Part shown: positions 37,801 to 41,229 of the stretch, in pieces
Layout of the letters: every line of letters starts with the position of its first letter
Numbering within the stretch: position 1 is the stretch's first letter
DNA from: the human T2T-CHM13v2.0 reference genome, Homo sapiens
Strand: one strand, 5' to 3'
Assembly: GCF_009914755.1 (NCBI RefSeq)
Contig: NC_060936.1
Length of the DNA: 64,000 nucleotides
Program-made: the position numbers and the translations under genes
Notes under the pieces: generated by a model
Told to the model about the DNA's origin: nothing
What the model saw: the letters and a program-made list of their open reading frames with translations, nothing else
The model's database searches: none

Positions 37801-40800
37801 AGAATGTCTAGGGGGTGGGAGCCACGTGTCAGTGGTTTTTAAAAATCCCATGTAATCTTTAAAAGTTTGGGAATAATTTTCCTCTTTTGTTTCCTACAAG
37901 TATCTGAAGCTTTGCAGAAAGAGTTACAAAGCAATAGGACAAAAAGAAAATGAATGAGGAAGTAAGGAGGAACAGGTAATGATGAAATAAGGATCCAATG
38001 AAGCCAGGGAATAAAGTCAGCTCATAACATGCGTACTATGAGATGCTATGCAGTTGCTACCACGGGCCAGAATTTTGACCCTGAGCTTCTTCAAAGCTAA
38101 AGCAAAAGGAAACCTGAGCAGTTCTGAGAGCCGTGATAGGAGCCAAACGCTATTTCATGAAAAGCCCTGGGAGTGCGGGGGGCAGAAAGAAATCTCTCCC
38201 AAGGCTCTTTGCAAAGAGAGCACCGTGTGGGGCCATGGACAGGGCTTTCCACTGTCCTCGCAATCCCATGGACCATTTGCTAAGTCACCCCTTAATGTTG
38301 GCTCTGGAGGTCATTCAAGGCCAGAATTAACTGCTCAGATCTCATGTAGCAAGAAAAGCTGAACGCACTTCTTAAATTCTTGATTTTTATCTGTAGCTGA
38401 TTTAAAAATCCTCCCATCTCCCCGGGCTCCTGACTCATCTTAAACTAATTAACCAGACTTGTTTGCTTGTAGATAGAGTGTCTGCATTTTGTCTTTCCTG
38501 TGGTCATTTCTTATTGTCCTGGCAATCAACTTGTCATTTCCTTCATTAGGCCAGGAGCTCGGAGGGACACTGCATTGATTAGGGCGCAAACCAGCTTTAG
38601 CTCGTCATCGTTGTGTGCTTAGAGGAAGTTCACCTGCTTTGGCCTCCACTCTGAGGGTGGGGTCACCACCCCTTCTGGAGCCTGGGCTTAGCCACTGGGC
38701 CCATCTGCCAGTGAAGGCACTGCCCCTGGCTCTGGTCTGTTGACGTGGAGACCTGAGAGACACTATTTCCTGCAGATGGGCAGGAGAGACAGCTCTGTCC
38801 CCTCCTCCCTTATCCCCCGTTCCCAGGAAGTTGAGAAATACTGATCCAGCCAGTCCTGTCTTCACCTTGGAACCAGTGTCGAGGGAGTGTGCCCCAGCAG
38901 AGTCCGTTCTAATTGGCTGGTGGCCTCAAGTGGGCTGTGGGTCAGGATGGGGACCAACTTGGCAGACAGCCATCAGGGTGGCCTCAGGGAGGTGTGTGGC
39001 CTGCCCAGGCAGGGCATTCTCCACACACCTAGTTGGCCCTGGAGTGCGTGGCAGCTGAGTGTGCTGGCTGCTGGGGAGAGGGGCGCTGCAGCAGGGTGTG
39101 GGTGTGAGTGTGAGGAGCTCCTGGGCCATGCGCTTCCCTACGCTCTGCTCTGTCTGTTGACACATGAGTCTCAGGCTGTAGGTAATTTGCGGACGGGGCT
39201 GGAATGCGATGTGTGTATTTTTCTAGGGGCTTGCTTGTGTGACTGCTGGTCTCTGTGTGTGTTTGGGGCACACATACATGGAATAGTCCCTCAGCAACGG
39301 GACCGCCCAGGGAGGAGCTGCTGTGTATGCATGGTGGGCAGGGGTGTGCACCCATGTGGGGAGTAGTGACCCAGCTGCCCGTAAGGGCCCTGGGCCTGGA
39401 GGTGCGTGTGTGGGGTCTCTGCCTCCACCTGCTGTCCCTGGGGCTGCGGGCTTTCCTGCTTTTCTTCCTTGTGCTTCTTCGAGAGCTGTGTGTGTGTGTG
39501 CAGGAGGCAGGCAGGGCTGTGCTCATGGCGGCTCGCTCTGTGGCCCTCACGGCCCACGTCTGTAGTGTCTATGTCTTCCTTCAGGGGGTTGCCTGGTCTG
39601 CCCAGCTGGTGGGGAGCTGGGTGATGCTGCACATATGGCTCTACCGTGCCTTGCTGGAGACCCCCAGACGCGTTCCTTTACTCCCGCAGTGTGAGCAGGC
39701 GGCCAGGTGGCTGGTGTGGGCCAGCATGCAGGCTGGCAAAGGCCTGGCTCGGGTGTGGGGCGTGGCAACCTTTGTGCAGCTGTGTGCCCACACGGTCTTC
39801 CTGAGCATGTACCTGTGCATGCACATCTGCTTTGCCGCCATCAGCTCTAAGGTCCGTGTGAGAGTGAACGCACCGTTCTGTGTCTCAGTGCCCTTGAAGG
39901 TCCATGCCCCTCTGAGCCTGGGCATCAAAGTGGGGCTGCAGGGCCAGAAGCATGGGAGAGCCACGGGGGAGGCAGGTATGCCTCAGGGGGAGATGTTGGG
40001 GAAGCAGGAACCCCAGACGTCCAGGAGCCCCAAGCCCACCAGGAGAAGGGAGGTGTCACGGAGTGAGCTCAGTCCAGGTGGGTAAGGGAAGGGGCTGCTC
40101 TGTGCCCCTTGGACTTGTCCCCAGCCTCAGGTGCTAGTGCCCTCTTCCTGCAGCCAGCCCAGGCTTGGAGCCTGCATCTCCTCCTGCTCAGCCAAGCCCG
40201 TGTGGGGGCCCCTCCTCTCCCTCACTGGGCACTGGCACCTCTTTCCTAGGCTGAGTGGTCTCTGGGGAAGGCACAGGTGGAATGACAGGGGCAGATTCCA
40301 GTCCTTGCCCTCTGTCCTCTGCGAATAGGGCTGTTCATGACAGTGTTGGGCAGGGAGTCTTTTTCCTCCTCTGCCCTTGCCTCTCTGTACACCTGCCTCC
40401 CTCTGTGTTTGTTCCTTTGCCTTGCAGCAGCTCCCTTCCTCCCCTTTCGTCTCCTGCCCTTCCTGGTGGGCTGTTTCTCTTCTGGCTTCTCCAGGTGTTC
40501 CTCTCTTCTCGGCCACCGTGTGTTCTGCCCTGGGAGTCCTTCAGCCCGGGCTGCCTCTTTTCCTACCCAGCCCCCTGTCCAAGTGCCCCCAGGTGTGCCT
40601 AGTCACGCTCTGCTCACCCCCGCGCTCTCTCTGCAGTGATACCCAGCGCCGCAACCCTCATCATTGTGGTGTGCGTGGGCTTCCTGGTGCTCATGGTCGT
40701 CCTGGGCCTGGTGCGCATCCATTCCCTTCACCGCCGCGTCTCAGGGGCCGGCGGGCCTCCAGGGGCCTCCAGTGACCCCAAGGACCCAGACCTCTTCTGG

Positions 40801-41229: not shown

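What the first reader, a model, noticed from the sequence alone, without database searches (positions are those of the whole stretch)
39327..41229. Second protein hidden inside CLSTN3: a large intronic exon replaces the whole cadherin ectodomain with a hydrophobic membrane domain (CLSTN3beta)
Seen: intron 16 holds a 276-codon stop-free frame (39255-40085) that is not repeat-derived, low-complexity or an antisense shadow. It ends at a CAG|GTGGGT donor (40077) whose phase (751 nt from ATG 39327, phase 1) matches the exon 17 acceptor. The spliced product 39327-40077 + 40637-40839 + 41089-41229 is 364 aa (355 aa from ATG 39354). It has no classic cleavable signal peptide and no cadherin/LNS domains, but keeps the TM and the WD/NP-motif tail. 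Established (from recall): a mammal-specific adipocyte isoform, calsyntenin-3beta, has been described in mouse brown/beige fat as an ER membrane protein linked to S100b secretion, sympathetic innervation and ER-lipid droplet contacts. So this is probably published but absent from the canonical neuronal model. Inference: one locus runs two systems (synaptic adhesion vs fat-cell organelle biology) by promoter and exon swap.
Basis: partly seen in the sequence, partly recalled or inferred. Interest (0 to 1): 0.93.

Follow-up and report, generated by a model that had tools for sequence, protein, structure and literature searches.

The report
Known fat-cell isoform CLSTN3beta, confirmed
The long open frame inside intron 16 of the calsyntenin-3 gene is the unique first exon of the already published fat-cell protein CLSTN3beta, which in mouse tethers lipid droplets to the endoplasmic reticulum and likely does the same in humans, so the finding is real but not new.

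Summary
Real, and already known. The frame is open for 280 codons (39243-40082), its donor at 40077 is in phase with exon 17, and the spliced 364-aa product is letter for letter the UniRef record 'Isoform CLSTN3beta of Calsyntenin-3' (human). Published human qPCR primers land in this exon and in exon 17. Published variant numbers (R133Q, R224S) fit only ATG 39354 (355 aa); 60 of 68 homologues have Met there, 4 of 68 at ATG 39327. ORF length alone proves little, but open orthologues across placental mammals and their depletion of charged residues do. No paralogue, no named non-placental relative and no informative fold match were found. Mouse papers show an ER-lipid-droplet tether: exon-encoded hydrophobic helices on the droplet, an arginine-rich linker, and the shared transmembrane helix in the ER. 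Side results: the shared helix is likely flipped, putting the 'kept' tail in the ER lumen; the human linker is the most arginine-poor of 37 aligned (5 of 10 functionally tested mouse arginines); the exon stays open in pig, donkey and sloth, which lack UCP1.

The parts
39243..40085 (+). Stop-to-stop open frame (280 codons + stop) that contains the coding part of the CLSTN3beta-specific first exon; the last two codons and the stop lie past the donor
39327..39329 (+). Upstream in-frame ATG; start of the 364-aa database isoform; Met in 4 of 68 homologues (two human records, two macaques)
39354..39356 (+). Conserved ATG; start of the 355-aa form; Met in 60 of 68 homologues; fits the published R133Q and R224S numbering
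39354..39863 (+). Hydrophobic helical domain (residues 1-170), lipid-droplet targeting in mouse; predicted helices 3-105 and 111-166; almost no acidic residues outside 101-120
39864..40077 (+). Linker (residues 171-241), predicted disordered, ending in the basic Arg/Pro segment; human Arg at 202, 224, 230, 231, 232, 236
39750..39752 (+). Codon 133 (Arg, CGG); c.398 = 39751 is the G of published rs7296261 G>A (R133Q); this assembly has Arg
40023..40025 (+). Codon 224 (Arg, AGG), site of published R224S (rs1868799/rs1868800); this assembly has Arg
39837..39856 (+). Exact site of the published human CLSTN3beta forward qPCR primer
40075..40083 (+). Splice donor, exon ends at 40077, phase 1
40637..40839 (+). 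Shared exon 17: transmembrane helix (248-267 of the 355-aa form) and start of the tail; the published reverse primer sits at 40650-40669 (-)
41089..41229 (+). Shared exon 18, coding part: acidic tail and stop

Best explanation
The frame is the unique first exon of CLSTN3beta, which splices onto CLSTN3 exons 17-18 to give a 355-aa (database form 364-aa) protein that likely tethers lipid droplets to the ER in human fat cells, as shown for the mouse protein. Steps: (1) an internal promoter in intron 16 starts the transcript (shown in mouse by Pol II and PPARalpha ChIP; human start site not located here); (2) the exon splices at 40077 to exon 17 (sequence, database record and human exon-spanning qPCR); (3) residues 1-170 form long hydrophobic helices that sit in the droplet monolayer (mouse fragment 1-198 localises to droplets; helices predicted here); (4) the shared helix anchors in the ER, likely upside down relative to neuronal CLSTN3, with the tail in the lumen (inferred); (5) the basic Arg/Pro linker clamps the two membranes and lets phospholipid flow from ER to droplet (shown in mouse and in vitro; inferred for human, whose linker has fewer arginines).
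For: Spliced product identical to P0002, named 'Isoform CLSTN3beta of Calsyntenin-3'. Human primers from PMC7546853 map to the exon and to exon 17, giving 274 nt spliced against 833 nt genomic. Variant numbering of PMC11748976 fits ATG 39354 at both codons and at c.398. 68 homologues at E<=0.01 of 8000 candidates scored, 47-100% identical; all 19 that carry a species name are placental mammals. A neutral simulation at matching divergence (58-71% aa identity) left the frame stop-free in 1-2 of 300 runs, and gave 7.7-8.6 D/E/K residues in 1-165 against 3.2 in 36 real orthologues. A desman gene model holds the exon between exon 16 and 17, so its position is conserved. Mouse domain mapping and the 10 Arg-to-Lys mutant: PMC11531554 and PMC10827225. 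The N-side of the helix has 6 basic residues within 25 in beta against 1 in alpha; the C-side has 4 in both.
Against: All mechanistic work that I read is on the mouse protein. The human linker has 6 Arg in 71 residues, the lowest of 37 aligned (range 6-16). One group wrote that CLSTN3B appears rare in human white fat and varies widely between people. The field disagrees on the downstream step (CIDE inhibition, phospholipid bridge, S100B chaperone). Protein databases show only frames that are open, so conservation is overstated; one unnamed record is frameshifted near residue 50 (P0072) and several start late or end early. I saw no direct statement of the tail's sidedness in the passages read. 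The AlphaFold model has pTM 0.24 and says nothing about helix packing.
Confidence: 0.9

Rival explanations
1. Same gene and same location, but its main action is to block CIDE-driven droplet fusion and keep droplets small and many, not to bridge phospholipid.
For: Reported by Qian et al. 2023 as cited in PMC12054784, PMC11748976 and PMC11531554 (the Nature paper itself not seen). It would not depend on the arginine count, which is low in human.
Against: PMC11531554 finds CIDEA excluded from the contacts and knock-out white adipocytes still unilocular. The two models are not exclusive.
Confidence: 0.35
2. Its main action is as an ER chaperone that drives S100B secretion and sympathetic innervation of thermogenic fat.
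For: Zeng et al. 2019 as summarised in PMC7546853, PMC7356379 and PMC11531554 (original not seen).
Against: S100B did not track CLSTN3beta across human depots; a review questions the chaperone reading; function in hepatocytes; the frame is open in pig, donkey and sloth, lineages reported to lack UCP1 and discernible neonatal brown fat.
Confidence: 0.12
3. The exon is mostly used unspliced, as a single-exon gene for a 243-aa droplet-only protein that stops two codons past the donor.
For: 48 of 68 homologue records end at the donor read-through and several are annotated as separate 'uncharacterized LOC' genes; mouse fragment 1-198 reaches droplets alone.
Against: The early stop follows from the donor sequence itself; 11 of 68 end elsewhere, most reading much further; 9 of 68 are spliced to the helix. 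The 40 and 25 kDa bands are seen with an antibody to the shared region, so neither is this product. Human qPCR spans the junction.
Confidence: 0.04
4. A chance open frame in G/T-rich intronic DNA, not translated.
For: 811 of 3000 random sequences with the ORF's own composition give such a frame; three similar-length frames exist elsewhere in the window.
Against: Open, length-conserved orthologues with a shared start and donor; neutral simulation; protein detected in mouse tissue.
Confidence: 0.01

Closest known systems
Human CLSTN3beta (UniRef 'Isoform CLSTN3beta of Calsyntenin-3', P0002; CLSTN3B of PMC11748976 and PMC7546853)
   Same: Identical: 364 of 364 residues; same primers and variant positions.
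   Different: The database form starts at ATG 39327; the variant papers number from ATG 39354. It is missing from the RefSeq gene table supplied with the finding.
Mouse CLSTN3B, 357 aa (Zeng 2019, Qian 2023, Zhang 2024 PMC11531554)
   Same: Same three-exon layout and domain order: hydrophobic 1-170, basic linker 171-243, helix, tail. Rodent orthologues are about 55-62% identical in the exon.
   Different: Human lacks two residues near the end of the exon (also missing in the two macaque records) and keeps Arg at 5 of the 10 positions mutated in mouse (224, 230, 231, 232, 236); the 222-232 peptide has 4 Arg + 1 Lys against 6 Arg.
Neuronal calsyntenin-3 (CLSTN3alpha, 956 aa)
   Same: Last 113 residues identical; Pfam CLSTN_C in exon 17.
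   Different: No signal peptide exon, cadherin or LNS domains; ER instead of plasma membrane; the helix is likely inverted.
Class I (hydrophobic hairpin) lipid-droplet proteins and ER-droplet tethers such as seipin and VPS13C
   Same: Works like them: long hydrophobic stretch in the monolayer, ER contact.
   Different: No sequence, profile or fold relationship found.

Membership tests
CLSTN3beta / CLSTN3B | Large unique first coding exon in the intron before the last two CLSTN3 exons | tested here: met
   39354-40077 in intron 16; desman model shows the same position
CLSTN3beta / CLSTN3B | In-frame splice to exons 17-18 giving the known protein sequence | tested here: met
   Identical to P0002; published primers span the junction
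CLSTN3beta / CLSTN3B | Hydrophobic helical N-terminal domain of about 170 residues | tested here: met
   Hydropathy and predicted helices 3-105, 111-166
CLSTN3beta / CLSTN3B | Arginine-rich linker before the helix | tested here: inconclusive
   Local cluster present (5 Arg in residues 220-241) but only 6 Arg in 71 linker residues, lowest of 37
CLSTN3beta / CLSTN3B | Hairpin fold of the N-terminal domain | tested here: inconclusive
   Two long helices with one break at 106-110; pTM 0.24
CLSTN3beta / CLSTN3B | Restricted to mammals | tested here: inconclusive
   19 of 68 hits carry a species name, all placental; 7 hits among 1.84 billion representatives, none remote; most hits unnamed, and absence from protein libraries is not absence from genomes
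CLSTN3beta / CLSTN3B | Own promoter, adipocyte-enriched expression, ER-droplet localisation | not testable with these tools
   Taken from papers
Calsyntenin (cadherin-family type I synaptic protein) | Cadherin and LNS ectodomain | tested here: not met
   No Pfam family above cut-off in the exon; product lacks exons 1-16
Calsyntenin (cadherin-family type I synaptic protein) | CLSTN_C helix and acidic tail | tested here: met
   PF19699, E 1.3e-18 in exon 17; 113 shared residues

The most novel reading that the evidence does not exclude
A de novo exon, born from G/T-rich intron sequence in the placental ancestor, flipped a synaptic membrane anchor upside down and turned it into a lipid-droplet tether that predates and outlives UCP1 thermogenesis; in humans and Old World monkeys its fusogenic arginine segment has been cut to half the mouse complement, so the human protein is a weak bridge and the common R224S allele (Arg or Lys in 65 of 66 homologues with a residue there, never Ser), not R133Q (Gln in 11 of 68), is the functional variant behind the obesity association.
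Probability: 0.2. Interest if true: 0.45.

Novelty: already known. Interest (0 to 1): 0.12.

Why it matters
As a discovery it does not: the isoform has been studied since 2019 and the human sequence is in UniRef. It remains a real gap in the RefSeq table given with the finding, which matters for RNA-seq quantification and for variant calls (rs7296261 reads as intronic but is missense). The side results are cheap to test and bear on whether mouse mechanisms carry over to humans: start codon choice, the low arginine count, which coding variant is causal, and retention in UCP1-less mammals.

Tried and rejected
Remote relatives or a donor for the exon: none. Pfam gave only a sub-cut-off hit (Motilin_assoc, E 0.062); the ESM Atlas gave no usable hit; the profile search of 1.84 billion representatives gave 7 hits, all orthologue-like; the human genome search gave two weak extra matches with stops (E 0.34, 0.68). 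Fold searches: Foldseek 0 matches; VIA-align only generic long helices, best Z 7.9; neither says anything about the fold. Internal duplication, hinted by one weak tblastn row: not supported, 7 to 23 of 60 column-shuffled controls matched or beat each of 4 profile comparisons. The 25 kDa band as the unspliced product: rejected, the antibody binds the shared region. Use as an internal cassette exon, as in desman model P0070: the three in-frame AG sites listed in the first part of the open frame have poor pyrimidine tracts (0.41-0.53), so likely a prediction artefact. Promoter: no TATA match near the exon and only isolated nuclear-receptor half-sites (38308, 38660, 38939); start site not located. 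Papers on origin or topology: 'CLSTN3B + marsupial' 0 papers; 'CLSTN3 + lipid droplet + luminal + hairpin' 0; one search listed 15 of 252, none about this exon by title; one search listed 3; one supplement of PMC11531554 searched with no hits, and its main supplementary PDF could not be read.

Full report
Observation. The donor at 40077 is the best consensus match among the GT sites listed for 39354-40300 and is phase 1 from both ATG 39327 and ATG 39354, like the exon 16 donor. The spliced products are 364 and 355 aa (39.7 and 38.8 kDa). The frame holds no tandem repeat, overlaps no annotated coding exon and is single-copy in the genome by protein and by DNA. Length alone is not good evidence: such a frame arose in 2 of 3000 random sequences with intron-16 composition but in 811 of 3000 with the frame's own composition, and the window holds other stop-free frames of 284, 271 and 266 codons.

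Identity. The top homologue, P0002, is named 'Isoform CLSTN3beta of Calsyntenin-3' (Homo sapiens) and equals the spliced product at 364 of 364 residues. The human CLSTN3beta primers of PMC7546853 (passages read) match 39837-39856 (+) and 40650-40669 (-), i.e. this exon and exon 17, 274 nt apart when spliced. PMC11748976 (parts 1 and 2 of 3 read) describes three exons, the first large and unique, and lists c.398G>A p.R133Q and p.R224S. Counting from ATG 39354 gives Arg (CGG) at 133 with G at c.398 and Arg (AGG) at 224; counting from 39327 gives Ser and Leu, and from 39525 Gly and Lys. In an alignment of all 68 homologues, 60 have Met at the 39354 column and 47 begin there; 4 have Met at the 39327 column, two human records and two macaques. 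So 355 aa is the conserved form and the 364-aa database form is at most a 9-residue extension in humans and macaques.

Conservation. The single-sequence search gave 67 proteins of 2349 candidates, the profile search 68 of 8000 scored, the longer-protein search 1 of 8000, and the unindexed search 7 among 1.84 billion representatives. 19 of the 68 carry a species name and all are placental mammals (primates, colugo, rodents, bat, mole, carnivores, donkey, pig, peccary, dolphin, sloth); the rest are unnamed, so the clade limit is not proven. Alignment A2 used the human exon and 36 of the hits, chosen because they end at the donor read-through and are 228-254 aa. My substitution-only neutral simulation (assumed kappa 4, CpG x8, started from the human sequence) left the frame stop-free in 2, 1 and 1 of 300 runs at 71, 64 and 58% amino-acid identity, the range of the real non-primate orthologues, and gave 7.7-8.6 D/E/K residues in positions 1-165 against 3.2 +/- 1.0 observed, with mean hydropathy 0.79-0.88 against 1.11. 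This points to selection for an open, hydrophobic, uncharged domain that otherwise evolves fast. Limits: protein libraries show only open frames; several named spliced models begin at a non-Met residue aligned with the human 364-aa start and are probably projected from the human annotation (inference); P0072 is frameshifted near window 39490-39503, and P0055, P0061, P0064, P0066, P0067 start late and P0068 ends early, which may be real losses or sequence errors. No codon-level dN/dS could be computed.

Anatomy. Residues 1-170 are hydrophobic and nearly free of acidic residues outside 101-120; 201-240 are polar and 221-240 basic. AlphaFold with A2 gives helices 3-105 and 111-166 and disorder from 167 (mean pLDDT 66.9, pTM 0.24). 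The shared part is the last 113 residues, with the helix at 248-267. No Pfam family, Atlas look-alike or specific fold was found for the exon, and no internal repeat.

Mechanism. PMC11531554 (introduction, section 8, discussion and passages) and its preprint PMC10827225 (passages) show for mouse that fragment 1-198 goes to droplets, 199-357 to the ER, that the contact is tight, and that changing 10 linker arginines to lysine reduces contact and ER-to-droplet phospholipid flow. PMC12054784 (passages) shows PPARalpha binding and Pol II at the mouse Clstn3b promoter and expression in liver. The CIDE-inhibition model (Qian 2023) and the S100B model (Zeng 2019) I saw only as cited in these papers and in PMC7356379 (passages). 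With the N-terminal domain and linker on the cytosolic side and one helix, the tail must face the ER lumen, the reverse of type I CLSTN3alpha. This is my inference; it fits the charge change on the N-side of the helix (6 basic residues within 25 in beta, 1 in alpha, 4 on the C-side in both). I recall that the original papers report a luminal tail but did not see it in any passage (PMC12803078 passages).

Human differences. The human linker has 6 Arg in 71 residues, the fewest of 37 aligned (range 6-16). Of the ten mouse positions mutated, human has Arg at five. The paper's figure of 29% Arg for mouse 171-243 is not matched by any aligned sequence (Mus pahari 14 of 73, 19%; highest 22%); Mus musculus was not among the named hits, so this is not a direct check. 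Column 224 is Arg in 61 and Lys in 4 of 68 homologues and never Ser, whereas column 133 is Gln in 11 of 68, which favours R224S over the linked R133Q as the functional change; PMC11531554 already predicts R224S to be a hypomorph, while the reported association was significant for R133Q and only a trend for rs1868800. Full-length open frames in pig, donkey and sloth, lineages with inactivated UCP1 according to PMC5507634 (passages), favour droplet biology over thermogenic innervation as the conserved role. I found no paper on the exon's origin in the searches, but the two Nature papers and the main supplement of PMC11531554 were not seen and may cover phylogeny, topology and human sequence.

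Verdict. Observation confirmed, interpretation supported with corrections, already known. Interest 0.12.

Noticed in passing
P0072 (unnamed record), matching window 39315-39621: An orthologue-like sequence without the conserved start Met and with a frameshift near residue 50 of the exon: a lineage that may have lost CLSTN3beta, or a sequence error.
   Followed up: partly
P0061 (Sagmatias obliquidens) and P0066, matching window 39486-40181 and 39519-40175: The dolphin record and a similar unnamed one start 45-55 residues into the exon; the N-terminal part may be disrupted in cetaceans. DNA not available.
   Followed up: no
P0070 (Galemys pyrenaicus, 1256 aa): Gene model with the beta exon fused between exons 16 and 17 of full-length CLSTN3; likely a prediction artefact, useful as proof of synteny.
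   Followed up: yes
window 39000-39850: TG and GT dinucleotides are about 1.7-1.9 times as frequent in the exon's hydrophobic part and in the 350 bases upstream as in the rest of intron 16, with TA and AA depleted; such DNA is poor in stops and rich in Val/Cys/Leu/Trp codons, a plausible substrate for de novo exon birth.
   Followed up: partly
window 32115-32966 (-), 25546-26358 (+), 41725-42522 (-): Other stop-free frames of 284, 271 and 266 codons; the first two overlap CLSTN3 coding exons, all have their first Met about 200 codons in; taken as shadows or chance.
   Followed up: partly
window 39726, 39807, 39819: Internal in-frame ATGs would give 231, 204 and 200 aa spliced products, near the size of the reported 25 kDa C-terminal species; the papers favour proteolysis and these Mets are not well conserved in the alignment.
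   Followed up: no
several NCBI records: In many mammals the exon is annotated as a separate 'uncharacterized LOC' gene ending two codons past the donor, which hides CLSTN3beta in those genomes.
   Followed up: partly
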